Source of the DNA: Bacteroidota bacterium
GTDB lineage: Bacteria > Bacteroidota > Bacteroidia > Bacteroidales > UBA12481
NCBI GenBank assembly: GCA_018669475.1
Contig: JABHCC010000032.1
Span: 6,058-70,057 of the forward strand
Direction: 5' to 3'
Length of the DNA: 64,000 nt
Shown here: positions 6,292-54,139 of the stretch, one piece after another
Layout: every line of letters begins with the position of its first letter
How positions within the stretch are numbered: position 1 is the stretch's first letter
Made by a program: the position numbers and the translations under genes
The notes under the pieces: generated by a model
Told to the model about the DNA's origin: nothing
Database searches by the model: none
The model's input: the letters and a program-made list of their open reading frames with translations, nothing else

Positions 6292-6294
6292 ACA

Positions 6295-8488: not shown

Positions 8489-8820
8489 GACAGGGAAAGG
8501 TGTTTTATAAAGATCATTTGGCTGGTATCCTAACTGAAACGAATGAGGGTGAGTATGAATTTCAGTATGATCATCAGTACATAAAAAATCATCGAGATGA
8601 TTTCATCACGTTTACAATGCCGGTCACAGACAAACCATACACCGAGAAACGACTCTTTCCATTTTTTGAAGGATTGATCCCAGAAGGATGGTTGTTAGAT
8701 ATAGCTTCTGAAAACTGGAAAATCAATAAAAATGATCGCATGGGATTACTTCTGGCTTGTTGTCAGAATTGCATCGGTGCAGTAAGTGTGGAACCAATAC
8801 CGGAAGAAGATGGAACATAG
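8485..8820 (+). CDS. HipS-like protein (HipA N-terminal subdomain as a stand-alone ORF)
   Basis: 111 aa, resembling the HipA N-terminal/coupling domain. It overlaps the downstream kinase ORF by 8 bp (atggaacatag). Confidence 0.6.
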   Translation: MRQGKVFYKDHLAGILTETNEGEYEFQYDHQYIKNHRDDFITFTMPVTDKPYTEKRLFPFFEGLIPEGWLLDIASENWKINKNDRMGLLLACCQNCIGAVSVEPIPEEDGT

Positions 8821-9751
8821 ATGTTTATATTGTTACGAAACAGTTGAAAAAAAATTCGACTTTCACGAGAAGTGTTCAATGGAGTTTTTTGGAACACCAA
8901 CACCCCCTAAAATAAAGTATTCGCTTGATCAAATGGATGAGCTCGCGAAAAATGTAGTAGAGCGAAGTGTTTCTGTTCCAGGTGTTCAGCCAAAACTATC
9001 GATGTCCATAATCAAAGAAACAAAGGAAAATTCGGATACGCGATTGACTGTGGTTGGAGCGTTAGGTGGGCACTATATTTTTAAACCACCTTCTGACAAA
9101 TTTCTCGAAATGCCGGAGAATGAACATGTAACAATGCGAATAGCTGAATCTTTTGGAATTCGAGTTGTGCCATCATCCTTGATTCGATTATTATCTGGAG
9201 AACTGTCTTATATAACAAAACGAGTTGACCGGAATGAAACTGGAGCAAAGATACACATGATCGATATGTTTCAAATCACAGAAGCATTTGATAAGTATAA
9301 AAGCTCCATGGAGAAAGTTGGAAAAGCAATAGGCAGCCACTCTAGTAACACTTTGCTTGATAAAACCTTTTTCTTTGATTTAGCTGTGTTCTCATTTCTA
9401 ACCGGAAATAATGATATGCATCTAAAGAATCTCTCTATGATCGAAAATACCTCTGGTTGGGTGTTGTCTCCTGCTTATGATCTATTAAATGTTGCAATAG
9501 TGTTCCCAGAAGATACTGAAGAACTAGCATTGACATTAGTTGGAAAGAAAAAGAAGTTGAAGCGAGAACATTTTGAAAAATTGGGAGAAGGAATGGAATT
9601 GACTCCTAAACAGATCAAAGGGACCTTCAATCGAATGATAAAGAATAAATCAAGAGCATTCAAATTATTAGATCGATCGCTCCTGTCAAAGGATATGAAA
9701 ACTGCATACAAAGAAGTACTTGAAGGGAGGTATCGACAATTAGGACTATAA
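8811..9751 (+). CDS. HipT/HipA-like serine/threonine kinase toxin (HipA C-terminal domain)
   Basis: Catalytic-loop-like NNDMHLKNLSM and SPAYDLLN motifs of HipA_C. The start is taken at MEHRCLY, which overlaps the hipS-like stop. A Cys/His cluster lies at the N-terminus. Confidence 0.65.
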
Positions 9752-22145: not shown

Positions 22146-25100
22146 CTACCTCTTGATTACTTTCACCCAATAAGAAACCCCGGCTGTGTCAAGCAAGCGC
22201 ACCAGGTAGATCCCTGAATTATATTCAGCCAGATCCAGAGTTTGCCCCGCTGAACTTTTATGAATTATTCCATGTTTAATCTCTTGTCCCTGAAGAGACA
22301 AAATCTGATAAGAGTATTCTTTATTGGCTGGCACATCCAGTCTTACTAGTCCATCTGTCGGAATCGGATATGCGCTGATGTCATTATCCAGCAATTCAAT
22401 ATCTGAACCTGAAGTGTCACCATTACATCCTGTCACGGAGAATTCGGCTGCTGATGCCCAGGGGCCACCATTCACTTCTGAAAGGGCCACCAGTCTCCAA
22501 TACTGACCAGATCGGGTCTCGGGCAAAATAACTGTTTTGGGAGCTGCTGAATTTTCCCAGGTACCGGTTGCTACCGGCTCACCCCATTCATGGTAATCAT
22601 CACCAACATACAATTCCCAGTCCTTTATTCGGCCATTCTGACCTGATTGACGTGGCAAATAAGTGAATTTATGAACACTGAATCGCTCAACCATATCAAC
22701 CATGATGGAATGCGGATAATCTTTGGTTCCACTGCTCCAGCTGGTATGCCAGATCGTTGTAGGATCACCATCAATTGCCATACTACCCAATCCCGGATAA
22801 TTATTCTCCTCACTGTCGACATATAACAATCGCCAGGTACTAATATCAAGTTCAGCAGGATTTGTACAATCACCAACCGAAGGGCAGGTAGTAGTGGTTA
22901 CCATATCAGGCATGGTTTTACTATATACATCACCATCTTTTGTTACAGTCAGTGTAACCGAGTATGACCCGGGAGTCCCTAATACCACTTCCGGATTCCG
23001 GATATTAGCATCACTGATATAAGCAGGAGCCGGAGTAATCTCCCATGCCCAGCTTACACCCTCATGATTTAGCATGGAGTGATCATCAAAATGCAGTGTG
23101 TCGAGCATGCAATTGAAAAAAGGTCTTTCAACCCAGGGTGTAATAATCGGAGTAAAAGCCGGGTCTTGCATAGGAGATTCCCAAACCCCGCCCGATCCGG
23201 CTGCACGCAGTTTGCTGTCGCGGAAGAAGGGCATTGCCAGATTAATTTTCATACCTGCCGGATAATTGGTGTTGAAATCCTGCCAGTCATCCATCTCGTC
23301 TGTCCTGTAATACACTTTGGCCGATTTCCCATTCTTCGAATTGGTAAAAAGATAAACTAAATCTTTTCCGTCTGAAGTGGGTTGAACAATCAGGTTTTTT
23401 GTGTATTCCGAAACTGTTCCCTTCCAGTTTGTCCAGGTATCACCACCATCTTCAGATTTGAATATTTTACCAATATCCGACGACCATGTACCGTTTTGAA
23501 GACAGGCATAAATGGTATTTCCATCATAGGGTGAAATAGCAAAAAAGAGTTTCCCTTTCCAGCTTGAGCTTCCATACGGACTTCGGGTAAGCTTGCTTTT
23601 GTACAACCAGGTATCACCCCCGTCTTCACTTTTATACAAGCCCCGGTTCACCACATCGACATACAAAATACCCGGGTTGCTATAACTCATTTCCATATAT
23701 CGCACCTTATCAGAGAATGTATGAATCCTTTCATAGCTAACTCCCATGTCGGTACTTTTCCATATACTGTTACCTTCGCCCACATACATAACTCCATAAT
23801 AATTCGGATGAGTAATAATATTCCCCCGGCGTCCGCCATATTCATCCATATTAGGAAACTTACTGAAAATAAAACGCCCTTCAGGCATGCCTGTGGCCTC
23901 CTTCGGAAGTATCCATCCATTACCCAGATCATTAAAAGCCACATGGCGGCTTTTTCCCTTTATCACCCATCCGGTAGGAGACTCTGCCCCACCCATCCTG
24001 AGGGCTTTATCACCATAAAAATCAGCGACTGCAGTATTACCGTTATGGTATCTTCCACCCACAAAAAGGTCTTCATTCCAACCCTGGTCAAAACCCCACA
24101 TATCTGATCCCACAATGCCATTGATACGAGTGTAAGAATTCGAAGTGCTGGTGAAGTCATCACTGCTTAATGTCATCCCTCCATCTGTTGCAACCCAGGT
24201 ATTACCGTTTGGCAACATCTTAATATCCTGGATATCAGGATGGATACTAAAATCACCTCCATATCCACCAACTTTAGCGAAATTCACTCCCCCGTCAGTC
24301 GATTTAAATAAAGTACAGGTTCCCCAAAAAACAGTATTTTCATTATTTGGCGAAACAGCTAAAACGTAATCGAAATATCCTTGTCCGGTAGAAAAACCGC
24401 CCAATCCAGCTTGAGATCTTGGTTCACCTTTTTTCGTGAGTTCCCAGGTCCATGAATCAGCACTGTGCGTACCCTTATAAATATAGGCATACTGTTCTTC
24501 CCCTTCTGAAACCAACATTGTGGCGTATATAATATTTGAATTTGCCTGTGTCACCGCCAAAAGAGCCCCACTGTGATTCGTATGTTCGGCTGGGAAATTA
24601 TCATCCTTCGAAAATGATGCACCGCCATCTCTGGATATAGTCAGCTCAAAAACACCACCATTCGAGGCAGATATCCCATATATAACATTGTTATCGTCTG
24701 GTTTGATTTCTACATCCCATGTTTTAGTACTCCAGGATTTTGTCCAGCTATCTCCACCATCCGTACTGATGAATATTCCTTTGTCAGCAGCTGCAATGAG
24801 TTTGTCAGGAGAGCTATAATCAATAATGAGCCTGCTGGCTGCAAACAGATCTGAACTTTCAAGCATCGGGATCCAGTTCAGGCCAGCATCTATAGTTTTA
24901 TGAATTTGACTACCGGCTGAAACATAAACAATATCAGGGTTCTCGGGGTGAATAGCAACAGCTGTGACCCCGCCACCGAAAGGATATCCTTGTCCTGATA
25001 ATTGCCAATTACGCCCTCCGTCACTTGTCTTATTCACATATCCTGTTTCTGCTCCTGCAAACAAAATCTCATTATTCGAAGCAGCCACATCAAAAGAATA

Positions 25101-25603
25101 AACATTCACCTGCCACGGACAAGATAAGGGGGCTTGCTGAGCGCCAGATGAATTCAGCCAGAAAGTCTGTTTTGGCCCCAGGAAGGTCCAGTTCGATTGC
25201 TGATCACTACCGGATTTATAAATCAATGGTGCTTCACGCTGAGCCTTCAGAAGGTTTTCCCTATACAGATTTAGATCTGGCAATTGTATTGAACCATCAT
25301 CAAGAACATAAGATTCAACTGCTCTCCTCCATATTTTGTAATATCTTATAATAGCATTCTTTCCTCCCGGATGGGTACTCATATAAGCCTGGTAATCTGC
25401 TTCTATCTCATTAAAATTGACCTGATCCTGATAAAGCATTTTTGCCCAATCAGGATAGCTATCACTATAAGCAGGCTTATAACTTTTAATCACTCCAGGG
25501 ATTTCATCATAAGGAGTAAATTGAGCCTGTGCTGACCCAGAAAGGCTGTAAACACCTATGAACAAGGCAATTTGAACTATGTGAAAAAAATTTGATTGTG
25601 TCA
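22146..25603 (-). CDS. Large secreted BNR/Asp-box repeat protein (Vps10/sortilin-like) with an F5/8-type-C (discoidin-like) domain and a T9SS C-terminal sorting domain
   Basis: At least 8 SxDxGxxW/F Asp-boxes (TSDGGRNW, TIDAGLNW, STDGGDSW, SRDGGASF, STDGGVNF, STDMGVSY, SEDGGDTW x2). The C-terminus reads YPIPTDGLVRL...GIYLVRLLDTAGVSYWVKVIKR. The start is taken at MTQSNFFHIV. Confidence 0.75.
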
Positions 25604-25675
25604 TACAATTTGGTCTTTTTTGGAAAGACAAAAGTACAACAAAACCCAGTGATTTCAACAAAAGAACTGACAAGA

Positions 25676-25810
25676 AGGGGACAGGGGACAAGGGACAGGG
25701 GGGACCAACGACCAATGACAAACGACCAGGGACCCGGACCCCGGACTTCGGACTTCGGACTTCGGACCCAGGATCCCGGACCCCAGACTTCTTTCCCCAG
25801 ACTTCGTCCT
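25676..25810. repeat. About 135 bp of degenerate tandem heptanucleotide repeats (GGGGACA x3, then GACNNNN/CGGACYY units including GGACTTC x3)
   Basis: 7-bp periodicity is visible directly. It lies in the promoter region of the BNR protein gene, just after the end of the PAS kinase gene. The plus-strand ORF 25592..25831 is an artefact of the repeat. Confidence 0.8.
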
Positions 25811-36040: not shown

Positions 36041-36529
36041 CTATTTATCCGGGTTAGGATGAGCCATTTGTTTAAGATACTCTTCATAATTAAAGCCTTT
36101 GAAATCAGGGCTTTCTTCGTTATGACAAGTCTTGCAGAGCTTTTCGTCAGGAATGATTAAGCCTTTTGCAACAGATTTCTCACGACTTTTCATGACTGAC
36201 ATAGATTTGTATGCACTACCCGGGCCATGACATGATTCACATCCGATTCCTTCTTTTTTGGTCAGGGAATACTGCAATTTGACATCTGTGTGCCCAACTG
36301 TAGCATGGCATTTCAAACATTTAGGATCCTTCTGCTCCTCGGCACTGAGTTTTGCCAGGGCATTTGCATGTGGACCTGCAGCCCAAAGTTTGTACTGTGC
36401 ACCTGTAGTTGCCTTATTATGACAACTCTTGCATTTTGCAGATCCGATATATTCGAAATCCGCCGGAGCCGGGCCTTTTCCAATGAAAAAACCGAGAGCA
36501 ATAAACAGTGGTAAAGCTTTTACAAACAT
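36041..36529 (-). CDS. Periplasmic tetraheme cytochrome c
   Basis: Signal peptide and four CxxCH motifs (CKSCH, CLKCH, CESCH, CKTCH) in 162 aa. Confidence 0.8.
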   Translation of the reverse strand: MFVKALPLFIALGFFIGKGPAPADFEYIGSAKCKSCHNKATTGAQYKLWAAGPHANALAKLSAEEQKDPKCLKCHATVGHTDVKLQYSLTKKEGIGCESCHGPGSAYKSMSVMKSREKSVAKGLIIPDEKLCKTCHNEESPDFKGFNYEEYLKQMAHPNPDK

Positions 36530-36751
36530 AATTATTGAATATAATGTTAAACTTAAAATATCAATACAAATAAGATGCCAATTTATTAAAAAAAGGAATA
36601 CGAATTACAACAACAAATCAATACATATATTGATATATATCAATGTTTGGGCAGATATATGTCACAAAGGCCCTGTTTAATTTGTAATCATTCTTTTTCA
36701 AAACTTTTGTATGATTGTAAAACTTGTAATTCGAATCAATTGCATACTCAA

Positions 36752-39577
36752 ATGATAAAAAGCAAAGGGATTAAAACAGGCATAATACTTAGAGTGACCT
36801 TACTTCTGATTACAATTCTTATGAGTCAAAACCTCACTATGGCTCAGAGTAATGAGGATTGTTTTATGTGTCATGAAGATCCTGAACTTACTGCCATGAG
36901 AAATGGTCGTACAGTCTCGATGCACATAAGGACAAACGCACTGGAAAATTCGGTTCATAATGATTTCGATTGCACTTATTGCCATGAAGATGCTGCTGTG
37001 GAAGAATTTCCTCATCCGGAGAAATTGCAAGCGGTAAATTGCGGTAATTGTCATGACGAGGCCATGGAAAAATTTGATCGTGGGATACATGGACAGGCTT
37101 TACGATTAAAAGAAATTTACGCTCCAAACTGTAATGAATGTCATGGCTCACACAACATCCTAAAAGGCAGTAACCCAAAATCTTCCACCTATAAGATGAA
37201 CATACCAATCTTATGCGGCAAATGTCACAGAGAAGGTGCTCCTGTTGCAAGGGTTTATGATATCGGTGAGCAAAATATTCTTGAAAACTACAGTCAGGAC
37301 ATTCACGGTATTGGTCTTTTTGAAAAGGGTTTAATTGTTTCAGCTACATGTAATGATTGCCATGGAAATCACGAGGTTTTACCACATTCAAGCATAAATT
37401 CGAGTATCTCAGCCAAAAATATTGCATCAACCTGCATGAAATGCCATACGAAGATTGAAGAAGTTCATGTTCAGGTTATCCGTGGAGAATTATGGGAGGA
37501 AAAACCAGGAGCTATACCCGCCTGCTCCAGCTGCCACATTCCCCATAAAGTAAGCAAGCATAATGTAACACCAAATATTGCCGATAAATCTTGTTTGGTA
37601 TGTCACGAGAAAGATGATGTTCATAAGGTTGTAGCTGACAGCACTATATCTCTTGTAGTAAACAAAGAGGATCTTGACAATTCTGTGCATCAGAATATTT
37701 CATGTGTTAAGTGCCATTCTGATGTTACAAGTAACAGAAGGCGACCTTGCGAAACTGTTGGACCAGTGAATTGCTCAAATTGTCATGCCGAAACATCAAA
37801 ACTATTTTCTGAGAGCGGGCATGGAAAAGCTCTTGAAGCTGACCACCCCAATGCTCCATATTGTACTGATTGTCACGGCACTCACAAAGCACAATCACGA
37901 TATGATGATACCTCACCGACTTACAGAACCAATATCCCGGATCTATGTGGTGATTGCCATTACAATGATGGCAAGGCAAACGAATTTGCTGACTTGGCAG
38001 AAAAAGATGCCCTGCCGGATTATTCATCGAGTATTCATGGCAAAGGTCTGTCTGAGAAAGGATTGATTGTGAGTGCTGTTTGTACCGACTGTCATTCAAC
38101 TCACTATATTCTAGGGGAAGAGGATGAACGGTCTTCAATTTTTCCCAAAAATATTCCTGCCACTTGTTCCACTTGCCATAAAGGAGTATATGACACTTAT
38201 ATCCTGAGTGATCACGGAATTGGAAACGCAGCTCCCACTGATGGCGAACACGAATATCCAACCTGTGTAAATTGCCACTCTTCGCATTTTATTGGCGCAA
38301 GCGGTCCAGATCATTTTAAAGAAGAGATTACACAGCGCTGTGAGCAATGCCATGAGGAAACTGCAGAAACATATCTGGATACTTATCATGGCAAAGCGCA
38401 TCTTCTGGGTCATGCAAAAGCTGCCAGGTGTTCTGATTGCCATGGGGATCATAACATTTACAATATGAATAACCCTAAATCCATGGTTGCCAGTCAGAAT
38501 ATTGTGGAAACATGCAGGCAATGTCATCCGGATGCTAATGCACGATTCACGGGCTACCTGACTCATGCAACCCATCATAATAAAGAGAAGCACTCAGCCC
38601 TGTATTATACATTTTGGGCTATGACCTTCCTTCTTACAGGCGTATTCGTATTTTTCGGTATTCATTTGCTGCTATGGATTCCACGATCCATTCAGGGACG
38701 AAGAGAAAGGAAGAAGCATGAACAACAGCCAAAGGGCCTGACCAGCAAATATTATATCCAACGATTCTCACGGAATCAGAGGGGAACACATATTTTTGTT
38801 ATAATTAGTTTCCTCCTGCTGGCCTTTACCGGGATGATACTCAAATTCGCCAATATGGAATGGGCCAGTACATTAGCTGGATGGATAGGTGGAATTGAAG
38901 TTACCGGGCGCTTACATCGATTAGGGGCTGTTATCACTTTCGGATACTTCTTCTTCCATCTGATTTCATTGATAATAATAAAAAGGAAGCGAAAAATTCC
39001 TTCTAAACGTTTCATATTCGGACCAAATTCTCTGATGTTTAACCTGACAGACATTAAGGATTTTGTAGCAACAATAAAATGGTTTGTTGGTCGGGGGCCA
39101 AAACCCGAATACGGACGCTGGACTTATTGGGAAAAATTCGACTATATGGCCGTTTTCTGGGGGGTTGCTGTTATTGGAATATCCGGACTCATGCTATGGT
39201 TCCCTGAGCAGTTCACCCTGGTTTTTCCAGGCTGGCTTATCAATATTGCTCAAATCATTCATTCAGATGAAGCTCTTCTGGCCGTAGGATTTATCTTTAC
39301 AATACACTTTTTCAATACCCACCTGCGACCTGAAACTTTCCCTATGGACACAGTGATTTTTACTGGTCTTGTTCCTTTCGAGGAATTCAGAAAAGATAGA
39401 CCTCGGGAATATAAGTACCTGAAAGAATCGGGAAGATTGAAGAAAGTTCTCATTAAAAAAGATGAGCTGAATACCGGGCGTGAGAAATTAATCCGCCTCA
39501 TGGGATTCATATTCGTCGCTTTGGGATTAACTATGGTCGGGCTGATTATTTATTCCGTATTGATTGGATACGTATAA
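36752..39577 (+). CDS. 19-heme c-type cytochrome fused to a C-terminal multi-TM cytochrome-b-like (HydC/FdnI-type) membrane domain; CbcL-like quinol:electron-acceptor oxidoreductase candidate
   Basis: 19 CxxCH motifs were counted in the periplasmic part, followed by 6-7 TM helices with conserved His residues (RGTHIFVII..., HRLGAV..., HSDEALLAV..., NTHLRPE). The start is taken at MIKSKG, followed by a signal peptide. Confidence 0.75.
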   Translation: MIKSKGIKTGIILRVTLLLITILMSQNLTMAQSNEDCFMCHEDPELTAMRNGRTVSMHIRTNALENSVHNDFDCTYCHEDAAVEEFPHPEKLQAVNCGNCHDEAMEKFDRGIHGQALRLKEIYAPNCNECHGSHNILKGSNPKSSTYKMNIPILCGKCHREGAPVARVYDIGEQNILENYSQDIHGIGLFEKGLIVSATCNDCHGNHEVLPHSSINSSISAKNIASTCMKCHTKIEEVHVQVIRGELWEEKPGAIPACSSCHIPHKVSKHNVTPNIADKSCLVCHEKDDVHKVVADSTISLVVNKEDLDNSVHQNISCVKCHSDVTSNRRRPCETVGPVNCSNCHAETSKLFSESGHGKALEADHPNAPYCTDCHGTHKAQSRYDDTSPTYRTNIPDLCGDCHYNDGKANEFADLAEKDALPDYSSSIHGKGLSEKGLIVSAVCTDCHSTHYILGEEDERSSIFPKNIPATCSTCHKGVYDTYILSDHGIGNAAPTDGEHEYPTCVNCHSSHFIGASGPDHFKEEITQRCEQCHEETAETYLDTYHGKAHLLGHAKAARCSDCHGDHNIYNMNNPKSMVASQNIVETCRQCHPDANARFTGYLTHATHHNKEKHSALYYTFWAMTFLLTGVFVFFGIHLLLWIPRSIQGRRERKKHEQQPKGLTSKYYIQRFSRNQRGTHIFVIISFLLLAFTGMILKFANMEWASTLAGWIGGIEVTGRLHRLGAVITFGYFFFHLISLIIIKRKRKIPSKRFIFGPNSLMFNLTDIKDFVATIKWFVGRGPKPEYGRWTYWEKFDYMAVFWGVAVIGISGLMLWFPEQFTLVFPGWLINIAQIIHSDEALLAVGFIFTIHFFNTHLRPETFPMDTVIFTGLVPFEEFRKDRPREYKYLKESGRLKKVLIKKDELNTGREKLIRLMGFIFVALGLTMVGLIIYSVLIGYV

Positions 39578-42128: not shown

Positions 42129-43607
42129 TTGATGAAGAAAGGAAGATTTCAGCATATTAAACGACTGCTTGGTTTATGTTTTATTCTCCTCACAGGAATT
42201 TCTGCTTATTGTCAGTCATTACATGAACACGAATTCAGAACCCGTTCTGATAAGAATAAAAAACCACCTATCCCTGAATATGTAAATCAGGAAATCATCC
42301 CTTTACAGGCTCGAACAGGAGGAGAACTGACAAAGGCTGTTTTCGGATATTTCCCCGAATGGGAATACAATAAAGCTCGTGATTATATCCAGTATGACCT
42401 ATTGAGTCATATCTGTTTATTTTCATTCGAGCTAAAAAAAGACGGATCTATGACCCCTCCATCCTACTGGCCGTGGACCGATGTGATTAACAAAGCTCAT
42501 GAGAATGGTGTAAAAGTGGTAATATCGATTGTGAATTATGATTCTGAAGAGTTTTACGATTTCTTACTGGATTCGCATGCCCGTAAAACTTTTTACAATG
42601 ATTTAGAGCTCTTAGTCAGAGATAACCACCTGGATGGCGTCAATATTGATTTTGAACACTTGCCAATTCCTAATCGTAATAACATGCTGAATGATTTTCT
42701 TCTTGAGATGCATGATTTATTAAACCTCATCACTCCCGGAGCTGAAGTCTCATTTGCAGGTCCGGCAATAAATGCAGGAGGTTGGGATTTTGTCGGACTG
42801 GCAGCTTCATGTGATTATATTTTTATAATGGGCTATGATTTCAAGGGTGGCTGGAGCGATAATGCCGGACCAAGCTCACCCCTAACAGGAGGTTACTATA
42901 ACTTAACACGTACTCTTGAAAAAGAATATGAAGATGTAGTCTCTACAAATCCTGAGAAACTCATACTTGGTGTCCCGTATTTTGGCAATAAATGGATTAC
43001 AAACAGTATCGATGCAAAATCTGGAGTTGTTGAGCATGTGCGAGCATACAGATACAGAGACTTAATCATTGAAGGATTAAGCAGTGGCATGCTTTGGCAC
43101 GACGACAGCAATACATCATGGTATATAAAAATAGGAGGAGACAATACCATTTATCAAACCTGGTTCGACACTCGCCAAAGCCTGGCACTCAAGTATGACC
43201 TGGCCGATTCGTATGATATAAAAGGAGTTGGTATTTGGGCCCTGGGATACGACAGGGATCACCCTGAACTCTGGAATGAACTACGATCAAGGTATTTAGA
43301 TACCTCATCAAAAACTGTAGAATCAGCTAAACAAAAATCTGAGTTTAACATATATCCCAATCCTTTTGTGTCCTTATCAAATATTAGCTTTAATCTCATT
43401 GAAGGAGGATCACTAACTATCAGAATATATAATCAACAAGGGAAACTTGTAGCACAAGTTGCACGTGGACACTTTGAGCCGGGTAAACATTCTATCTCTA
43501 AATGGGGAAGTGATCTGCCAGTCGGATCCTACTATTGCCAATTCATCCACACCGTGGAAAATACGACCCATTCTCACGTCAAGAGCTTCTTAAAAATCAA
43601 GGAATAA
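42129..43607 (+). CDS. GH18 (chitinase-like) glycoside hydrolase with a T9SS C-terminal sorting domain
   Basis: Signal peptide. The GH18 catalytic motif is LDGVNIDFEH (a D-G-x-N-x-D-x-E variant). The C-terminus reads FNIYPNPFVSLSNISFNL...GSYYCQFIH. Confidence 0.7.
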   Translation: MMKKGRFQHIKRLLGLCFILLTGISAYCQSLHEHEFRTRSDKNKKPPIPEYVNQEIIPLQARTGGELTKAVFGYFPEWEYNKARDYIQYDLLSHICLFSFELKKDGSMTPPSYWPWTDVINKAHENGVKVVISIVNYDSEEFYDFLLDSHARKTFYNDLELLVRDNHLDGVNIDFEHLPIPNRNNMLNDFLLEMHDLLNLITPGAEVSFAGPAINAGGWDFVGLAASCDYIFIMGYDFKGGWSDNAGPSSPLTGGYYNLTRTLEKEYEDVVSTNPEKLILGVPYFGNKWITNSIDAKSGVVEHVRAYRYRDLIIEGLSSGMLWHDDSNTSWYIKIGGDNTIYQTWFDTRQSLALKYDLADSYDIKGVGIWALGYDRDHPELWNELRSRYLDTSSKTVESAKQKSEFNIYPNPFVSLSNISFNLIEGGSLTIRIYNQQGKLVAQVARGHFEPGKHSISKWGSDLPVGSYYCQFIHTVENTTHSHVKSFLKIKE

Positions 43608-44713: not shown

Positions 44714-45394
44714 ATGAAAAAGCTGAGAACCATTCTATCTTTTGCCTTGCTGTGTTTAGCAATCTCTTCCTCAATGGCTCAGAATGATCCGTTTTTATTA
44801 ACTATCAATGTTAATCAGGCTGACTCAATTATTAAAGTCTACAGTGACAGTTCTAATTTTGTTATTCTGGATGTGCGCACACCGGCGGAATTTGAAACCG
44901 GAAGGATTGAGACTGCGATAAACCGCGACTTTTACAATTCAGGGTTTAATGATTCTCTGGCAAAACTTGACAAAAACCTTGTCTATTTAGTGTACTGTCA
45001 TAGCGGTGGAAGAAGTAATGCCGCTTCAAACAAGATGCGAGACACTGGGTTTAAGTATGTTTACAATATGTCTGGAGGAATTACTGCCTGGATTGGTGCT
45101 GGGTATCCGGTAGTTACAGGAGGTACAGGAGTTGACATCATGGAGACCAGTATGGCGGGGGTGCAGTTTTACCCAAATCCGGCAACAATTGATTCCAGAT
45201 TCTATTTGAGTGCTGATACCAAGGCCTCTGTAAGAATAATCATATACAGCCAGATTGGGCAGAAAGTATCTGAACTAACCATAGAACCAGGGGAGTCTGG
45301 AGAATTTGGCCATCAAAAATTATCCAATGGATTATATTTCTATCAGGTTTTCGATAATGAGAAACTTAGCCAAACCGGCAAAATCATAAAATAA
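44714..45394 (+). CDS. Secreted single-domain rhodanese (sulfurtransferase) with a T9SS C-terminal sorting domain
   Basis: Signal peptide, rhodanese active-site loop CHSGGRS and a C-terminal CTD (VQFYPNPATIDSRFYL...NGLYFYQVFDNEKLSQTGKIIK). Confidence 0.75.
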   Translation: MKKLRTILSFALLCLAISSSMAQNDPFLLTINVNQADSIIKVYSDSSNFVILDVRTPAEFETGRIETAINRDFYNSGFNDSLAKLDKNLVYLVYCHSGGRSNAASNKMRDTGFKYVYNMSGGITAWIGAGYPVVTGGTGVDIMETSMAGVQFYPNPATIDSRFYLSADTKASVRIIIYSQIGQKVSELTIEPGESGEFGHQKLSNGLYFYQVFDNEKLSQTGKIIK

Positions 45395-48368: not shown

Positions 48369-49175
48369 TTATTTGCGTATCCTTGGATATTGTATTCTGA
48401 ATCCCCTGCCGGATGCATCCTTAACCACCTTTATGGATTCAAAACTAGCCTCAAATGATCCGTTTAAAACCATTTCGTGTGGCTCACCTGCCACTATCCC
48501 TCTATCTGGCTGTATCAGCCAGAGGCAATCGGCAGTTTGCAAGGCCAGGTCAAGATCATGCGTCGTCAAAACAACAGCTTTGTTTGTTTCAAGTGCTAAT
48601 TCCCTCAACAACAACATTGTTTCAATTCGATTTGGAAGATCCAGATGAGCAGTGGGTTCATCAAGCAATATCAGCGGAGTATCCTGGGCCAGTGCTTTAG
48701 CTATCATTGTACGTTGCAGCTCACCATCGCTGAGCTCCTGTACATCTCTTGATCTAAAATCATCCAGACTAACCTGATGTAAGGCTTCCCTGATTTTTTC
48801 TCTGTCCTCATTGCCCATGCGGCCAAGCCAGTTTATATGTGGATATCTACCCATAGAAACCAGGTCATAAACACTGAGATTCTTTACCTGCACTTTTTCT
48901 GTCAGAACGACGCTCATCAGGCGGGCCAGGTGCTTCTGCTGATTAACATTTACCTTTTGTTGGGCTATAATGACATTACCGGATAGTGCTGACTGAATAC
49001 CTGCCAGGGTTCTTAGTAAAGTGGATTTCCCTGATCCGTTTCGTCCAAGAATACATACCACTTGCCCGCGATTGACTGACAAATTCAGATTCGAAAGCAC
49101 AGTATATGGCTTCCCTCCCTGTTTGGGATATCCGATCCCGAGATCTTCTGTGATAAGTATAGCATCCTGATTCAT
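48369..49175 (-). CDS. ABC transporter ATP-binding protein (BtuD/FecE-like, for iron-siderophore/cobalamin importers)
   Basis: Walker A GRNGSGKST, LSDGELQR signature and LLLDEPTAHLD. Confidence 0.85.
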   Translation of the reverse strand: MNQDAILITEDLGIGYPKQGGKPYTVLSNLNLSVNRGQVVCILGRNGSGKSTLLRTLAGIQSALSGNVIIAQQKVNVNQQKHLARLMSVVLTEKVQVKNLSVYDLVSMGRYPHINWLGRMGNEDREKIREALHQVSLDDFRSRDVQELSDGELQRTMIAKALAQDTPLILLDEPTAHLDLPNRIETMLLLRELALETNKAVVLTTHDLDLALQTADCLWLIQPDRGIVAGEPHEMVLNGSFEASFESIKVVKDASGRGFRIQYPRIRK

Positions 49176-49183
49176 AGAACAAA

Positions 49184-50278
49184 CTAATTAGCTAAGCTTC
49201 TTCGTTTTCGTCTGGTAATCACCCAAATAACAACAGGAGCACCAAACAAAGCGGTAACCGAATTAATGGGCAAAACCTGGTTAGATCCAGGCATCTGAGA
49301 TATGATATCACAACATAACATCAAAATACTTCCAATGCAAATAGTTGCTGGAATCAGAATCCTGTGATCAGAGCTTTTGAGCAGGTTTCGTGCCAGATGC
49401 GGAACCGCTACGCCAATAAAGGCAATTGGTCCGGTAAAGGCTGTTAATCCACCAGCAATCACACTTGTCAGAAGAATGATCCACAATCGCGACCTTTTAA
49501 CATCAACACCAATTCCCCTGGCATAATTCTCACCTAACAATAATGCATTCAAAGGCTTTTGCATGAAGAGTGTGAAAAGAATGCCAGTGACAACTATAGG
49601 AGCAAAAATTACAAATTGATTCCAGGTTACTCCTGAAATACTACCAAAAGTCCAAACGAGAAAACTATGAACGGTGTCAGGATCGCTAAAGTATTCCAAT
49701 ACACTTACAATGGCACCAGTAATACTGCCAAACATGATTCCAATTATCAGAATGGAAACTGAATCATTTACTCTGACCGAGACAGCAATGACAAGCATCA
49801 TAACCAGCACCGATCCAAGCATTGAGGCACCTACAAGACCTAAACTTCCGACGAAAGGCATTCCTATTATACTCAGGCCTCCAATACCAGCAGCCATCAC
49901 GAATATAGCAACTCCCAGACTGGCTCCTGAGCTGATCCCCAGAACAAAGGGACCTGCTAAGGGATTCCTGAAAAGGGTTTGCATCATTAATCCGGCTAAT
50001 GATAATCCTGATCCGACCAATATTGCAGTAAGAGCTTTCGGCAGCCTGAAAACCAGCAGGATGTCGCGCAAGTACTCTTCTCCATCCGGCCCTACACTTC
50101 GGATCAGTTTTGCTGGTGAGATCAATACACTTCCCAGCAGCAGATCAAGACAAAATAAAAGCAGAACTCCTGCGATTAGTAAGGTAAAAAACAAGCGTAT
50201 TTTTCTTCTTTGATTCAAACTACTGCAATTTTTTATAATACACCAACTTATGATTTGGCAATACTTCAGGATGGGCAA
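49184..50278 (-). CDS. FecCD/BtuC-family ABC permease
   Basis: About 9 TM helices with a BtuC-like pattern ([34 protein letters not shown]). Confidence 0.85.
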   Translation of the reverse strand: [364 protein letters not shown]

Positions 50279-51386
50279 TAAAAATCAGATCTGCAAGTAC
50301 CACATGTGGTTGCATTATGGCTCCTTCCCAATAATCATTGGCCAATCCCCTCAGCATGCGATTAGACAAGCTGTAGACCTCCTTTTCTTTAAAAGCCCTG
50401 AACATTGAATAGCGAGGATCTTCTATAGTCAAGTCAGATAATTTTCGGGCTGATACATTCAACCAAAAAGGAGCATCATTGAATTCATGCACAACTGCTT
50501 CAAAACCCAATGGAAGGCTTTCCGATTCTTTCTTCTCATACCAGGGATAGAAAAAACCGGCATCCTTTAGGAATTCAGACATATAATTCCCTCCTCCCGG
50601 CATGAACCAGGTCCCTTTGAAACTATTACCAATCAACACTTTCGGATGCTCAATCTGATCTGAAATCTGACCTTTCAATTCGAGATAATCTTCTTCAATG
50701 GATTGAAAAATTGAATCAGCCACAGATTCCATATTCAACAATAATCCAAATACTTTGATCCACTCAGCCCTTCCCAAAGGTGTAGGCTCCAACCATTCCA
50801 TCACATATACTAAATCAATTCCTGTTTGTCGGATTCTGGCATCTTTTGCAAGTTGGCCGGCAAATCCTGTTTGGATGATAATATCAGGTTGCTGGTTCAC
50901 CAAACTTTCATAATTATACTCCATATCTGAGCCAATCCGAATCAGATCTCCTTTTTTGTATTTATCATACAATGCACTGTGATACAACCTATCCGGAGTT
51001 GTACATCCGATAACTCGTTCAGCTTCACCAAAAGCGTCTAAATAAGCTACATGAGTGGTGGAAAAAATGGCCCATCTGGCAGGATTGGCACGTAAAATTT
51101 TCTCTTTATCAAGATGGTCCGGAATCGCAACATCTGGCTTAAGCACCTGATAAACGGCGAAGGTGTCGCGTTGATTCCATGGGTCAAGAATACTAAGCTC
51201 TGTATATCCCTCTTCCTCCCGGATGACGAAACCACGGGCATATTTCTCTGATCCGGAAATACTCCGGCCCGTATTCATGGACTGCTTATGATCATTACGA
51301 TCAACTTTAGATGACTTAGATGGAGAACATCCCGACCAAGTCAGTAAAAAAATAATCCAAAACAGACCTGCAAATAGCTTTTTCAT
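50220..51386 (-). CDS. Periplasmic substrate-binding lipoprotein (BtuF/cluster-A-like) of the ABC importer
   Basis: Lipoprotein signal LLTWSGCS. Class III PBP-like. It is the first gene of the operon and sits directly downstream of the riboswitch. Confidence 0.7.
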   Translation of the reverse strand: MKKLFAGLFWIIFLLTWSGCSPSKSSKVDRNDHKQSMNTGRSISGSEKYARGFVIREEEGYTELSILDPWNQRDTFAVYQVLKPDVAIPDHLDKEKILRANPARWAIFSTTHVAYLDAFGEAERVIGCTTPDRLYHSALYDKYKKGDLIRIGSDMEYNYESLVNQQPDIIIQTGFAGQLAKDARIRQTGIDLVYVMEWLEPTPLGRAEWIKVFGLLLNMESVADSIFQSIEEDYLELKGQISDQIEHPKVLIGNSFKGTWFMPGGGNYMSEFLKDAGFFYPWYEKKESESLPLGFEAVVHEFNDAPFWLNVSARKLSDLTIEDPRYSMFRAFKEKEVYSLSNRMLRGLANDYWEGAIMQPHVVLADLIFIAHPEVLPNHKLVYYKKLQ

Positions 51387-51419
51387 TTTTTGCTGTCATT
51401 GGATTCAGGGGTATTTCAG

Positions 51420-51665
51420 GGGATCGTTTAATAACGACTCCATGGGTTTCGCCCCGAAAACCATGTATCAATATATTCGCGGCAGGTCTTCTGGCTTTCC
51501 CGATCGCATCCTCCTTCCCGCCCCGATCAACGATGGCAGTGGTCAGACTGGACACGACACTATCCCTAAAAATTGGGATCGGAATTACAGCTGCGGGGGC
51601 AGCTCCGGACTTTCAAAACAATTGAGCACCGGATTCCCTATTAAGCATTGCACCGACAAGAAAAC
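51420..51665 (-). ncRNA. Cobalamin (B12) riboswitch
   Basis: Minus-strand sequence shows AATAGGGAA..GGTGCTCAA..TCCGGAGCTGCCCCCGCAGCTGTAA and a B12-box-like GACCACTGCC, matching conserved cobalamin riboswitch elements. It is immediately upstream of the btuF-like gene. Confidence 0.75.
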
Positions 51666-51766
51666 AAAGATAAATAAAACAAGAAGACAAAAAACTGTTT
51701 AAAATAATTCTAAATAAGCAAAATTCATTGTTTCTTTGCAAATCAAAACCCAGAGATAGATAAAAC

Positions 51767-54139
51767 ATGACCCTGGCAGAACTAAAAACGGGTGAAAAGG
51801 CTGTAATCTCCAAGATCAAAGGACGAGGAACGTTCAGAAAGAGGATCATGGAAATGGGCTTTGTCAAGGGCAAAGTGGTCAGAGTGGTGAAATCGGCACC
51901 CCTTAAAGACCCTATTGAATATCAGATATTAAACTACAATATTTCTCTTAGAAGAGCAGAAGCTGCTTTGGTTGAGGTAGTGCGTTTGGATACAATTCAT
52001 GAGAAAGAATTTAAAACCACAGAAGACGAACCCAGACAAATCAGCGAAAAAATCAGGCAGCAATTGAAAGAAAGGGGCCAGCATATTGAAGTTGCTCTTG
52101 TAGGCAATCCCAATTCAGGTAAAACCTCGATTTTCAATATAGCCAGCCACTCCCGTGAGCATGTCGGCAATTATGCTGGTGTTACTGTTGATTCAAAGAA
52201 AGCTAATTTCAAGCAAAACGAGTATAACTTTCAGCTCACTGACCTGCCTGGAACATACTCGATCACAGCTTACAGTCCTGAAGAGCTCTATGTCAGAAAA
52301 TACTTAATGAATGAGTATCCTGATGTTGTACTTAATGTGATTGACGCTTCAAATCTGGAAAGGAATCTCTTTCTCACTTCGCAGTTGATCGACATGGACC
52401 AGAAAGTGGTTATTGCACTCAACATGTACGATGAGCTGGAAAAAAGAGGAGATACTTTCGACTATGGCCATTTGGGTAAAATGTTCGGAATACCGATTAT
52501 TCCTACTGTGGCTCGCAATGGTGAGGGCATTGAGGAGCTTTTTGACACTGTTATTGCACAATTTGAGGATGAAGAACCGATAACACGTCATGTTCACATT
52601 AATTACGGAAAAGAAGTAGAACGGTCAATCAGCAGGCTTCAGACTCAAATTCGGGGAACAGGCTTCAGTTACGCATTAAGCTCTCGTTTTTTTGCTACAA
52701 AACTCCTGGAGAAAGACCAGGACATAAGCGAATATATTCAGTCTTTCAATCCTGAAGGGAGTATTCAGGAACTTGCTGACAAGGAAATCCGAAGGTTAGA
52801 AAATCTTCTTAGTGACGATACCGAAGAATTAATTGCTGATGCCCGATTTGGTTTTATTTCTGGTGCTCTGAAAGAGACATTGAAAGAAAAGCAAGACGAA
52901 GTGGAAGAAGAATCGACTCCGACGGCACGCCTGGATCGTATTCTAACAAATAAATGGCTTGGATTCCCCTTGTTTCTGCTTTTTCTCTGGCTTATGTTTC
53001 AAACCACCTTCAGCGTAGGACAATTTCCTGTAAGCTGGATTGAGTCAGGCGTTTCATTGCTATCAACATTATTCACTCAATTGCTGCCAAGTGGGATTTT
53101 TCAGGATCTTGTGGTTGATGGAATAATTGGAGGAGTTGGAGGTGTTATCATATTCCTGCCTAATATCCTCATTTTGTTTCTATTCATTTCTTTCATGGAA
53201 GACACAGGATACATGGCTCGTGTTGCCTTTATTATGGATAAGCTCATGCACATGATCGGTCTTCATGGAAAATCATTTATCCCACTGATAATGGGTTTTG
53301 GTTGTAATGTTCCGGCAATTATGGCTACCCGTACACTTGAAAACAAACGTGACCGCTTACTAACTATGTTGATTATCCCGCTGATGTCATGCAGTGCCCG
53401 CCTGCCTGTATATATTCTTATTGCAGGAGCAATCTTTCCCGGTCAGGCTGGAAACATAATCTTCGGATTATACATGACAGGTATTCTGTTGTCTGTACTT
53501 GTCGCCTTGGTTCTTAAAAATACACTTTTCCGTAAGCAGGAATCACCTTTTGTGATGGAATTACCTCCCTACAGAGTACCCACTGCACAAGCTATATTCA
53601 AGCATATGTGGTTTAAGGGTCAGATTTATTTGAAAAAAATGGGAGGGCTGATCCTGATTGCTTCAATAATAATTTGGGCATTAGGTTATTTTCCACGAGT
53701 TGAAGGAAACAAAACTGAACAATTAGAGAACTCCTATATTGGGAAAATTGGCAAAACCGTTGAGCCAGTGATTAAGCCTCTGGGGTTTGACTGGAAAATG
53801 GGTATTGCCCTGATAACAGGTACAGTTGCCAAAGAGGTAGTTGTCAGCACGCTGGGAGTATTATATCAGGATGATGAAGCCTCAGACAATCTACCCGACA
53901 AAATCCGTACAGACGTTTACCAGACCGGGCCACGCAAAGGTCAAACTGTATACACGCCACATGCAACCCTTGCATTCCTTTTGTTTGTTTTGATTTATGT
54001 CCCTTGTATAGCTGTACTCGCGGTTATCAGAAAAGAATCAGGTGGTTGGAAATGGGCGATTTTCATGGCTGTTTACACTACAGCCCTTGCCTGGATTATA
54101 GCTTTTGGGGTATTCCAGATTGGCTCACTTTTGGCCTGA
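51767..54139 (+). CDS. feoB: Ferrous iron transporter, FeoA-FeoB fusion
   Basis: N-terminal FeoA SH3-like segment (GEKAVISKI...GFVKGKVVRV), G-domain VALVGNPNSGKTSIFN/DLPG and a polytopic C-terminal permease. Confidence 0.9.
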   Translation: MTLAELKTGEKAVISKIKGRGTFRKRIMEMGFVKGKVVRVVKSAPLKDPIEYQILNYNISLRRAEAALVEVVRLDTIHEKEFKTTEDEPRQISEKIRQQLKERGQHIEVALVGNPNSGKTSIFNIASHSREHVGNYAGVTVDSKKANFKQNEYNFQLTDLPGTYSITAYSPEELYVRKYLMNEYPDVVLNVIDASNLERNLFLTSQLIDMDQKVVIALNMYDELEKRGDTFDYGHLGKMFGIPIIPTVARNGEGIEELFDTVIAQFEDEEPITRHVHINYGKEVERSISRLQTQIRGTGFSYALSSRFFATKLLEKDQDISEYIQSFNPEGSIQELADKEIRRLENLLSDDTEELIADARFGFISGALKETLKEKQDEVEEESTPTARLDRILTNKWLGFPLFLLFLWLMFQTTFSVGQFPVSWIESGVSLLSTLFTQLLPSGIFQDLVVDGIIGGVGGVIIFLPNILILFLFISFMEDTGYMARVAFIMDKLMHMIGLHGKSFIPLIMGFGCNVPAIMATRTLENKRDRLLTMLIIPLMSCSARLPVYILIAGAIFPGQAGNIIFGLYMTGILLSVLVALVLKNTLFRKQESPFVMELPPYRVPTAQAIFKHMWFKGQIYLKKMGGLILIASIIIWALGYFPRVEGNKTEQLENSYIGKIGKTVEPVIKPLGFDWKMGIALITGTVAKEVVVSTLGVLYQDDEASDNLPDKIRTDVYQTGPRKGQTVYTPHATLAFLLFVLIYVPCIAVLAVIRKESGGWKWAIFMAVYTTALAWIIAFGVFQIGSLLA

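What the first reader, a model, noticed from the sequence alone, without database searches (positions are those of the whole stretch)
36041..39577. Divergent pair: a tetraheme cytochrome c and a 19-heme cytochrome c fused to a cytochrome-b membrane domain (CbcL-like but far larger)
The plus-strand gene encodes a signal peptide, 19 CxxCH motifs (counted by eye) and then a multi-TM domain with conserved histidines of the HydC/FdnI b-type cytochrome type. In Geobacter, CbcL (9 hemes) has this kind of fusion and is an inner-membrane quinol oxidase feeding extracellular electron transfer. A 19-heme version is unusual.

A small tetraheme cytochrome is divergently transcribed from a roughly 120-bp shared AT-rich promoter region, which suggests co-regulation as an electron-transfer module.
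Basis: partly seen in the sequence, partly recalled or inferred. Interest (0 to 1): 0.7.

Follow-up and report, generated by a model that had tools for sequence, protein, structure and literature searches.

The report
19-heme CbcL-type membrane cytochrome with partner
This is a real but already catalogued kind of respiratory protein: a large inner-membrane cytochrome of the Geobacter CbcL family carrying 19 hemes, found in hundreds of sediment Bacteroidota genomes, paired with a small four-heme partner and an oxygen-regulator-type DNA site.

Summary
The plus-strand gene encodes a signal peptide, exactly 19 CxxCH motifs and a six-helix membrane domain. That domain matches Ni_hydr_CYTB, and its only strong structural match is E. 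coli FdnI. All four FdnI heme-b ligands map onto invariant histidines, and the five-histidine pattern published for Geobacter CbcL is intact. The minus-strand gene is a c554-type tetraheme cytochrome.

The novelty claim does not hold. Shi-lab tables from 2018 already list 19-heme, six-helix CbcL/MtrH/MtoC homologues from Bacteroidetes and Marinilabiliales with the same heme spacing, and 409 species genomes encode relatives. The true start is ATG 36752 (941 aa), so the intergenic region is 222 bp, not about 120.

New details found here:
- 19 hemes = an 11-heme (8+3) core plus a duplicated octaheme module.
- The tetraheme gene is linked to the big gene in about 58 of 80 loci, in three arrangements.
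- A perfect FNR/CRP-type box (36630-36643) recurs upstream of these cytochrome genes.
- In relatives the gene sits beside CbcBA-like, ImcH-like, CcsBA, DUF5777-barrel and FNR-like regulator genes.

Most likely role: anaerobically induced exchange of electrons between menaquinol and periplasmic cytochromes. This is a new member of a known kind, of modest interest.

The parts
36041..36529 (-). Gene for a 162-aa periplasmic tetraheme cytochrome c of the c554 type: signal peptide plus 4 CxxCH.
   Evidence: ORF and motif count. Pfam Cytochrome_C554 scores 45 bits against a cutoff of 20.8. PDB sequence matches are 6i5b_A (E 2e-10) and Nitrosomonas cytochrome c554 1bvb (E 2.9e-4). A homologue lies within about 2.5 kb of the large gene in 58 of 80 loci. 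The invariant non-motif residues are H54, M113 and H157.
36530..36751 (.). 222-bp AT-rich (23 % GC) intergenic region between the divergent genes, containing the regulatory box.
   Evidence: Sequence. The box-containing stretch aligns in register with loci that share the divergent layout. No Rfam family reaches threshold.
36630..36643 (.). Perfect palindromic FNR/CRP-type operator TTGATATATATCAA (TTGAT-N4-ATCAA). It lies about 108 bp from the tetraheme ATG and about 116 bp from ATG 36752.
   Evidence: Two matches in 64 kb against 0.30 expected. Across the window plus 80 loci, 21 of 24 perfect boxes lie within 400 bp upstream of a cluster cytochrome gene. Restricted to non-coding DNA the figure is 20 of 20, binomial P = 2.7e-10. 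A CRP/FNR-family regulator with an FNR-like cysteine layout heads the cluster in 34 of 80 loci.
36752..39577 (+). Gene for the 941-aa CbcL-family bc-cytochrome: signal peptide, 19-heme periplasmic domain and six-TM dihaem-b domain. The mechanical ORF extends upstream to TTG 36647.
   Evidence: NCBI annotates the same 941-aa product (P0286).
36752..36844 (+). Sec signal peptide (residues 1-31, predicted cleavage TMA|Q).
   Evidence: Hydropathy and sequence. Homologues have their first heme at about residue 33-37.
36845..37576 (+). Octaheme module A (residues 32-275, hemes 1-8). This is the extra module relative to the 11-heme relatives.
   Evidence: Module A versus B: 36 % identity, E = 3e-53. 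The 11-heme relatives align only to residues ~277-937.
37577..38323 (+). Octaheme module B (residues 276-524, hemes 9-16).
   Evidence: Heme spacing is offset by 244 residues from module A.
38324..38587 (+). Triheme module C (residues 525-612, hemes 17-19), next to the membrane.
   Evidence: 41 % identical to hemes 3-5 of module A. It is conserved in the 11-heme relatives.
38588..39574 (+). Six-TM FdnI/HydC-type dihaem cytochrome b domain (residues 613-941). Conserved histidines: H638 (TM1), H680 (TM2), H722 (TM3), H837 and H852 (TM5).

Best explanation
The large gene encodes an inner-membrane bc-type cytochrome of the CbcL/MtrH/MtoC family. This is the 19-heme subfamily common in Bacteroidales, Marinilabiliales and Calditrichota.

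Proposed mechanism:
1. Menaquinol binds at the FdnI-type membrane domain.
2. Electrons pass through two b hemes. The cytoplasmic-side heme is ligated by H680/H852 and the periplasmic-side heme by H722/H837.
3. Electrons then run along 19 bis-His c hemes in the periplasm (modules 3 + 8 + 8, counted from the membrane outwards).
4. They are handed to the co-inherited c554-type tetraheme cytochrome, which relays them to terminal acceptors. These are most likely extracellular or insoluble oxidants, or periplasmic reductases.

Expression is probably switched on under anoxia by an FNR-type regulator that binds the TTGAT-N4-ATCAA box between the two genes.

Shown here: domain architecture, fold, ligand conservation, topology, family membership, gene linkage, and enrichment of the box.

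Inferred: heme loading, direction of electron flow, the tetraheme protein as direct partner, FNR control, and the terminal acceptor.

By analogy with CbcL, a cytoplasmic-side quinone site would make this a low-yield, low-potential route.
For: - Architecture: 19 CxxCH, a signal peptide and 6 TM helices. There are 20 invariant non-motif histidines for 19 hemes.
- CbcL signature: the published five-histidine, six-TM pattern of CbcL is reproduced.
- Family membership: 61 % identity to PKP08298.1, which is listed as a CbcL/MtrH/MtoC homologue.
- Published function of CbcL: a menaquinol oxidase for low-potential acceptors with a proposed cytoplasmic-side quinone site.
- Partner: tetraheme linkage in 58 of 80 loci in three arrangements.
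- Cluster context in relatives: CbcBA-like, ImcH-like, CcsBA, a DUF5777 barrel and a lipoprotein multiheme cytochrome.
- Regulation: FNR-type box enrichment and FNR-like regulators at the cluster heads.
Against: - There is no biochemical or genetic data for any 19-heme member.
- The 64-kb window holds no outer-membrane conduit, no ImcH-like or CbcBA-like gene and no FNR-like regulator, so the downstream path in this organism is unknown.
- The family occurs in both Fe(III) reducers and Fe(II) oxidisers, with no sequence feature that sets the direction of electron flow.
- The AF2 model has only moderate confidence in the heme domain (mean pLDDT 68.5), and the hemes are not modelled.
It was self-checked only through the positions of its histidines.
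Confidence: 0.62

Rival explanations
1. Same protein, opposite direction. It acts as a quinone reductase (MtoC-like) that takes electrons from periplasmic or extracellular donors such as Fe(II), reduced humics or a syntrophic partner, passes them through the tetraheme cytochrome and the 19-heme chain, and feeds them into the menaquinone pool.
For: The CbcL/MtrH/MtoC family is found in both Fe(III) reducers and Fe(II) oxidisers, and no feature distinguishes oxidases from reductases. In FdnI itself, electrons flow from the periplasm to a cytoplasmic-side quinone and this generates pmf. I recall that Nitrosomonas c554, the closest named relative of the partner, carries electrons towards a quinone reductase.
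Against: The FNR-type box and FNR-like regulators suggest induction under anoxia. In relatives the gene sits with ImcH-like and CbcBA-like genes, whose characterised Geobacter counterparts are quinol oxidases. The hosts are Bacteroidales-type anaerobic heterotrophs. None of this is decisive.
Confidence: 0.15
2. It is the quinol-oxidising entry module for an ordinary periplasmic respiration (for example nitrite, sulfur or polysulfide, selenite, arsenate or N-oxide reduction) rather than for extracellular electron transfer. The tetraheme protein would shuttle electrons to a soluble reductase encoded elsewhere.
For: No outer-membrane conduit lies in the window. The partner belongs to the c554/NrfB-like group, whose PDB relatives include nitrite reductases. 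Other heme proteins lie 19-25 kb away: an 8-heme TPR protein and an HZS_alpha-domain propeller.
Against: No catalytic reductase gene is conserved next to the pair in the 80 loci. The recurrent neighbours are further quinol-oxidase-like cytochromes, a small beta-barrel, a lipoprotein multiheme cytochrome and CcsBA. A 19-heme chain seems excessive for a simple shuttle-loading role.
Confidence: 0.2
3. The fusion is an artefact: two genes (a multiheme cytochrome and a cytochrome b) joined by a sequencing or assembly frameshift, or a decaying pseudogene.
For: Split versions of this arrangement exist in nature. One example is the 7-heme cytochrome followed by a separate cyt b in L048. Another is the stand-alone membrane domains with 0 hemes among the representatives.
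Against: It is a single uninterrupted ORF. Identical proteins are assembled independently on at least 7 contigs from several sources. 112 of the 120 closest homologues have the same 19-heme fused architecture. 409 species genomes encode full-length relatives. An extra linker helix (TM1) carries H638, which is 98 % conserved.
Confidence: 0.01

Closest known systems
Geobacter sulfurreducens CbcL (GSU0274) and the CbcL/MtrH/MtoC family (PMC6295460; bioRxiv 10.1101/2022.08.31.506072; 10.1101/2021.04.15.440034)
   Same: An N-terminal periplasmic multiheme c domain is fused to a C-terminal six-TM FdnI/HydC-type dihaem b domain. The five-histidine pattern is the same (one in each of TM1-3 plus an FdnI-like pair in TM5). 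There are no FeS, flavin or Mo subunits. A small periplasmic multiheme partner is nearby. 19-heme Bacteroidetes and Marinilabiliales members are already tabulated in this family.
   Different: It has 19 hemes instead of 9. The periplasmic domain is built from an 11-heme (8+3) core plus a duplicated octaheme module. The 9-heme-type representatives (organism unknown) are only about 37 % identical over the aligned region. The host is Bacteroidota, not Desulfuromonadia. An FNR-type box replaces the constitutive expression reported for cbcL. No experimental data exist.
E. coli formate dehydrogenase-N gamma subunit FdnI (PDB 1KQF/1KQG chain C)
   Different: Identity is only 18-20 %. An extra helix precedes the FdnI-like core and another follows it. 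It is fused to a cytochrome c domain rather than docking FdnGH. No molybdopterin or FeS subunit genes are nearby. The TIGR01583 score is 41.6, far below the cutoff of 115.85.
Nitrosomonas europaea cytochrome c554 (PDB 1BVB/1FT5), compared with the small gene
   Same: It is a soluble periplasmic tetraheme protein. The Pfam Cytochrome_C554 match is above cutoff, and there is direct sequence similarity (E 2.9e-4). Only three invariant distal-ligand candidates serve four hemes. From my own knowledge, c554 has one five-coordinate heme, which this recalls.
   Different: It is 162 aa, whereas the 1bvb chain has 211 residues. One candidate ligand is Met113. The NCBIfam Cyt554_Nsmonas score is 33.9 against a cutoff of 400. 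No HAO gene lies nearby. It is genetically tied to a CbcL-type protein instead.
Geobacter CbcBA and ImcH (the other inner-membrane quinol oxidases of extracellular electron transfer)
   Same: In relatives such as L048 the 19-heme gene is flanked by two such genes. One is a CbcBA-like pair: a 7-heme cytochrome with a C-terminal anchor, plus a 'thiosulfate-reductase-like' cyt b. The other is an ImcH-like protein of 500 aa with N-terminal TMs, a NapC/NirT region and 6 CxxCH plus one CX3CH. cbcBA homologues in Prolixibacter, Marinilabiliales and Caldithrix were noted in the CbcBA paper.
   Different: These are separate proteins, not the finding itself, and none lies in the 64-kb window. The ImcH assignment rests on architecture only, because no curated ImcH model was available.

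Membership tests
CbcL/MtrH/MtoC family of inner-membrane bc-cytochromes | N-terminal signal peptide followed by a periplasmic domain with multiple CxxCH motifs (3-23 in the published survey) | tested here: met
   19 CxxCH and a signal peptide. 20 invariant candidate distal histidines. Published range.
CbcL/MtrH/MtoC family of inner-membrane bc-cytochromes | C-terminal domain with six transmembrane helices | tested here: met
   Hydropathy. AF2 helices at 615-657, 674-698, 715-747, 792-816, 828-857 and 908-939. Positive-inside pattern.
CbcL/MtrH/MtoC family of inner-membrane bc-cytochromes | Membrane domain of the HydC/FdnI (Ni_hydr_CYTB) type | tested here: met
CbcL/MtrH/MtoC family of inner-membrane bc-cytochromes | Five conserved histidines: one in each of TM1-3 and an FdnI-like pair in TM5 | tested here: met
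   H638, H680, H722, H837 and H852 are invariant in 45 close homologues and 97-100 % conserved in 94 diverse ones. Pattern as described.
CbcL/MtrH/MtoC family of inner-membrane bc-cytochromes | Sequence homology to recognised members | tested here: met
   61 % identical to L052 = PKP08298.1, which is listed in Table S2 of PMC6295460 with 19 hemes and 6 TM.
CbcL/MtrH/MtoC family of inner-membrane bc-cytochromes | Menaquinol oxidase activity feeding extracellular electron transfer at low potential (the function of the type member) | not testable with these tools
   Needs genetics, electrochemistry or biochemistry. Only gene-neighbourhood support is available in relatives.
Formate dehydrogenase-N gamma subunit (FdnI equivalog) | Score above the curated equivalog cutoff, and association with FdnG/FdnH catalytic subunits | tested here: not met
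   TIGR01583 scores 41.6 bits against 115.85, and NF007924 scores 23.4 against 341. No Mo or FeS subunit genes are in the window. The JGI name 'cytochrome b subunit of formate dehydrogenase' is therefore a domain-level label only.
Cytochrome c554 family (small gene) | Tetraheme protein matching the Pfam Cytochrome_C554 model | tested here: met
   4 CxxCH. PF13435 scores 45.1 bits against 20.8. 1bvb E 2.9e-4.
Cytochrome c554 family (small gene) | Equivalog of Nitrosomonas CycA working with hydroxylamine oxidoreductase | tested here: not met
   NF043010 scores 33.9 bits against a cutoff of 400. No HAO gene is in the window or recurs in the loci.
FNR/CRP-type regulon | Palindromic TTGAT-N4-ATCAA operator upstream of the regulated genes | tested here: met
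   Perfect box at 36630-36643. 20 of 20 non-coding boxes in the 81 sequences lie upstream of cluster genes, P = 2.7e-10.
FNR/CRP-type regulon | Cognate CRP/FNR-family regulator that binds the box and responds to oxygen | tested here: inconclusive
   A regulator with cNMP_binding + HTH_Crp_2 domains and an FNR-like cysteine layout heads the cluster in 34 of 80 loci. None is in the window, and binding or O2 response cannot be tested here.

The most novel reading that the evidence does not exclude
The duplicated 19-heme domain may be a fixed, membrane-anchored 'wire' long enough to reach most of the way across the periplasm. My rough estimate is about 150 A if the chain is linear, scaled from the roughly 80 A I recall for the 10-heme chain of MtrA. 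It was not measured here.

Together with the c554-like adaptor, it would plug into a Bacteroidota-specific, FNR-controlled extracellular electron transfer pathway that has not been described. The outer-membrane module of that pathway would be the small DUF5777 barrel plus a monoheme lipoprotein and a lipoprotein multiheme cytochrome, rather than a porin-cytochrome (MtrAB/Pcc) complex.
Probability: 0.2. Interest if true: 0.65.

Novelty: new member of a known kind. Interest (0 to 1): 0.3.

Why it matters
Bacteroidales, Prolixibacteraceae and Calditrichota are abundant in anoxic sediments and are usually regarded as fermenters. A widespread gene set resembling Geobacter's three quinol oxidases suggests that many of them can respire insoluble or extracellular acceptors. 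That set comprises the 19-heme CbcL type, a CbcBA type and an ImcH type, with a dedicated tetraheme carrier, a cytochrome-maturation system and an FNR-type switch. This would change carbon and metal budgets for those habitats.

The finding itself adds little that is new. The architecture was tabulated in 2018 and the CbcBA paper already pointed to these phyla. It does supply concrete, testable details: the ligand map, the modular origin of the 19 hemes, the conserved partner and the operator site.

Tried and rejected
- PDB sequence searches with the full protein and with the membrane domain alone gave nothing useful. Only fold comparison and a profile alignment recovered FdnI.
- Looking up cluster members of ten 9-heme representatives, hoping to find a named Geobacter CbcL for a direct comparison, returned no organism names.
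- Three papers that looked promising contained nothing on a Bacteroidota CbcL-type protein: the 2026 peat multiheme-cytochrome preprint, the 2026 Nat Commun syntroph paper and the ISME J Prolixibacteraceae paper.
- No paper in the library mentions DUF5777.
- The window's immediate neighbours are not conserved next to the pair. MG2 and M1 each recur in 1 of 80 loci; the others in none. They were therefore dismissed as context. These neighbours are the MG2-domain protein, the PF13796 'Sensor' protein, the M1 peptidase and the GH18 T9SS protein.
- A search for the Bacteroidota -7 promoter motif (TAnnTTTG) in the intergenic region gave no convincing promoter for either gene.
- An Rfam scan of the leader and intergenic region gave only sub-threshold chance hits.
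- The weak Foldseek hit of the heme domain to hydroxylamine oxidoreductase (E 0.026, TM 0.24) was judged to reflect generic heme-packing similarity, not evidence of catalysis.
Full report
**1. Observation**

The two ORFs exist as described.
- The plus-strand ORF (36647-39577 from the first TTG) contains exactly 19 CxxCH motifs and no variant motifs.
- The minus-strand ORF (36041-36529) contains 4.

The large ORF has one N-terminal hydrophobic segment and six C-terminal transmembrane helices.

The likely start is ATG 36752, for four reasons:
- It yields a canonical signal peptide (MIKSKGIK / hydrophobic core / TMA|Q).
- It puts the first heme at residue 37, as in homologues (residue 33-36).
- It is the start NCBI uses for the identical protein (P0286, 941 aa, 'hypothetical protein HN352_01495 [Bacteroidetes bacterium]').
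- It leaves the regulatory box described below outside the coding region.

The intergenic region is therefore 222 bp at 23 % GC, not about 120 bp. All residue numbers below use the 941-aa numbering.

**2. The membrane domain**

Pfam Ni_hydr_CYTB matches above its gathering score (38 bits against 30.1). The FdnI equivalog models are far below their cutoffs. Sequence searches of the PDB found nothing.

I ran a profile alignment of 94 diverse membrane domains against FdnI. The alignment gives 97.4 % probability and maps the ligands as follows:

| This protein | FdnI ligand |
|---|---|
| H680 | His18 |
| H722 | His57 |
| H837 | His155 |
| H852 | His169 |

These four histidines, plus H638 in the extra first helix, are invariant in 45 close homologues. 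They are 97-100 % conserved across 94 representatives of the superfamily.

The loops obey the positive-inside rule. The three predicted cytoplasmic loops carry 10, 10 and 13 K+R, and the two periplasmic loops carry none. This places H680/H852 at the cytoplasmic side and H722/H837 at the periplasmic side, as in FdnI.

**3. The heme domain**

Heme spacing repeats with an offset of 244 residues.
- Residues 30-275 and 276-524 are 36 % identical (E = 3e-53).
- The last three hemes resemble hemes 3-5 of each module (41 %).
- The 11-heme relatives align end to end with residues ~277-937 at 42-46 % identity with identical spacing.
- A 22-heme relative is (8+3) x 2.

So 19 hemes = an 11-heme core plus one extra N-terminal octaheme module, and the family grows by module duplication. 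There are 20 invariant non-motif histidines for 19 hemes, so bis-His ligation throughout is feasible.

**4. How unusual is it?**

Not very.
- The close family is large. More than 3000 proteins scored E <= 1e-5. The best 120 are about 930 aa and 61-100 % identical, and 112 of them carry 19 motifs.
- 409 species-level genomes encode a relative. Most are Bacteroidales, Prolixibacteraceae and Salinivirgaceae, with some Calditrichia, Chlorobiota and Aminicenantes.
- The membrane domain has 2311 cluster representatives. They carry 0 to 22 hemes, with modes at 9 and 11.

Most importantly, PMC6295460 (2018) reports CbcL/MtrH/MtoC homologues in 15 phyla with 3-23 motifs and mostly six helices. Its Table S2 lists 19-heme, 6-TM proteins from Bacteroidetes HGW-4, two Marinilabiliales MAGs and Handelsmanbacteria with the same spacing. 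The HGW-4 protein is my locus L052, 61 % identical to the window protein. The second refutation criterion (frameshift fusion) is also excluded.

**5. The partner**

The small protein matches Pfam Cytochrome_C554. It is also similar to Nitrosomonas c554 (1bvb) and to a larger multiheme protein (6i5b).

A homologue lies within about 2.5 kb of the large gene in 58 of 80 loci, in three layouts:
- divergent upstream, as in the window;
- convergent downstream;
- co-directional downstream, after an intervening gene.

Conserved linkage despite rearrangement argues for a functional partnership rather than a merely shared promoter. Only H54, M113 and H157 are invariant outside the motifs, which gives three distal ligands for four hemes.

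**6. Regulation**

The intergenic region holds a perfect TTGAT-N4-ATCAA palindrome at 36630-36643. There are 2 matches in the window against 0.30 expected.

In the window plus 80 loci, 21 of 24 perfect boxes lie within 400 bp upstream of a cytochrome-cluster gene. Restricted to non-coding DNA, 20 of 20 do so, against 33 % expected (P = 2.7e-10). The box aligns in register in loci that share the divergent layout.

In L048 a CRP/FNR-family regulator heads the cluster. It has an N-terminal cysteine cluster plus Cys120/121, and homologues are present in 34 of 80 loci. I recall a similar cysteine layout for the [4Fe-4S] ligands of E. coli FNR. No such regulator is in the window.

Co-regulation by an FNR-type anaerobic switch is therefore well supported bioinformatically but untested.

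**7. Wider context**

In the window the pair is isolated among unrelated genes of a T9SS-bearing Bacteroidota genome.

In many relatives the gene lies in a conserved cluster, for example in L048. The gene order is:
1. FNR-like regulator
2. lipoprotein multiheme cytochrome
3. monoheme lipoprotein
4. DUF5777 beta-barrel
5. 7-heme cytochrome with a C-terminal anchor, plus a 'thiosulfate-reductase-like' cyt b (CbcBA-like)
6. the 19-heme fusion
7. ImcH-like 500-aa cytochrome
8. tetraheme cytochrome
9. CcsBA fusion

The CbcBA paper had already noted cbcBA homologues in Prolixibacter, Marinilabiliales, Labilibaculum and Caldithrix. No paper in the library mentions DUF5777.

**8. Mechanism and verdict**

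The best reading is a CbcL-family menaquinol:cytochrome c oxidoreductase. The proposed electron path is quinol site, then two b hemes, then 19 c hemes, then the tetraheme carrier. It would be induced under anoxia.

By analogy with CbcL, the FdnI-type arrangement implies a cytoplasmic-side quinone site and a low-yield route. The direction of flow and the terminal acceptor remain inferred.

The protein is a new member of a published subfamily. The interesting residue lies in the cluster-level picture in relatives, which is outside the window.

Noticed in passing
window 58399-60750 (+) and 61312-63636 (+): Two more heme proteins lie about 19-25 kb downstream. One is a 783-aa protein with 8 CxxCH motifs followed by TPR repeats. 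The other is a 774-aa beta-propeller protein with an HZS_alpha middle domain (116.7 bits), 2 CxxCH and one CX3-4CH motif. A hydrazine-synthase-alpha-like domain in a Bacteroidota genome is curious. Any relation to the cytochrome pair is unknown.
   Followed up: partly
L048 4381-18270 (Prolixibacteraceae chromosome OY787458) and about 45 other loci: A conserved cluster surrounds the 19-heme gene. It holds an FNR-like regulator, a lipoprotein cytochrome with 5 CxxCH plus one CX4CH motif, a monoheme lipoprotein, a 306-aa DUF5777 beta-barrel, a CbcBA-like pair, an ImcH-like protein, the tetraheme cytochrome and a CcsBA fusion. The monoheme-plus-small-barrel pair could be an undescribed outer-membrane electron conduit. 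No paper in the library mentions DUF5777.
   Followed up: partly
window 36659-36751: The in-frame stretch upstream of ATG 36752 would encode MSQRPCLICNHSFSKLLYDCKTCNSNQ..., a CxxC...CxxC pattern. Some gene callers include it (P0001, 972 aa). Homologues lack it and the FNR-type box abuts it, so it is probably untranslated leader.
   Followed up: partly
window 177-190: This is the only other perfect TTGAT-N4-ATCAA box in the window (TTGATCTCAATCAA). It sits at the very edge, so its target gene, possibly outside the window, was not identified.
   Followed up: no
window 48369-54139: Iron-uptake genes cluster here: a FecCD-type ABC transporter with a periplasmic binding protein (48369-51386, minus strand) and a FeoA-FeoB fusion (51767-54139). 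Ferrous iron uptake near multiheme cytochrome genes may be coincidental, or may relate to heme and iron demand.
   Followed up: no
window 36041-36529 (tetraheme protein) and 58 homologues: Only three non-motif residues that could ligate heme are invariant (H54, M113, H157) for four hemes. This implies one His/Met heme and one heme with an open or unconventional sixth ligand.
   Followed up: partly
P0129 (representative): This 1005-aa relative has 22 hemes whose spacing is an exact tandem repeat of the 11-heme (8+3) unit. Whole-unit duplication therefore also occurs in this family.
   Followed up: partly
window 22146-25721, 42129-43607, 44714-45394: Three proteins carry the Por_Secre_tail (T9SS C-terminal sorting) domain: a 1191-aa protein with an F5/8 type C domain and weaker Sortilin/BNR-like matches, a GH18 chitinase-like enzyme and a rhodanese. 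This marks the source as a T9SS-bearing Bacteroidota genome.
   Followed up: partly
window 8786-9751: A HipA-like kinase (toxin of a HipBA-type toxin-antitoxin pair) lies downstream of a sigma-54 two-component system (5038-7668).
   Followed up: no
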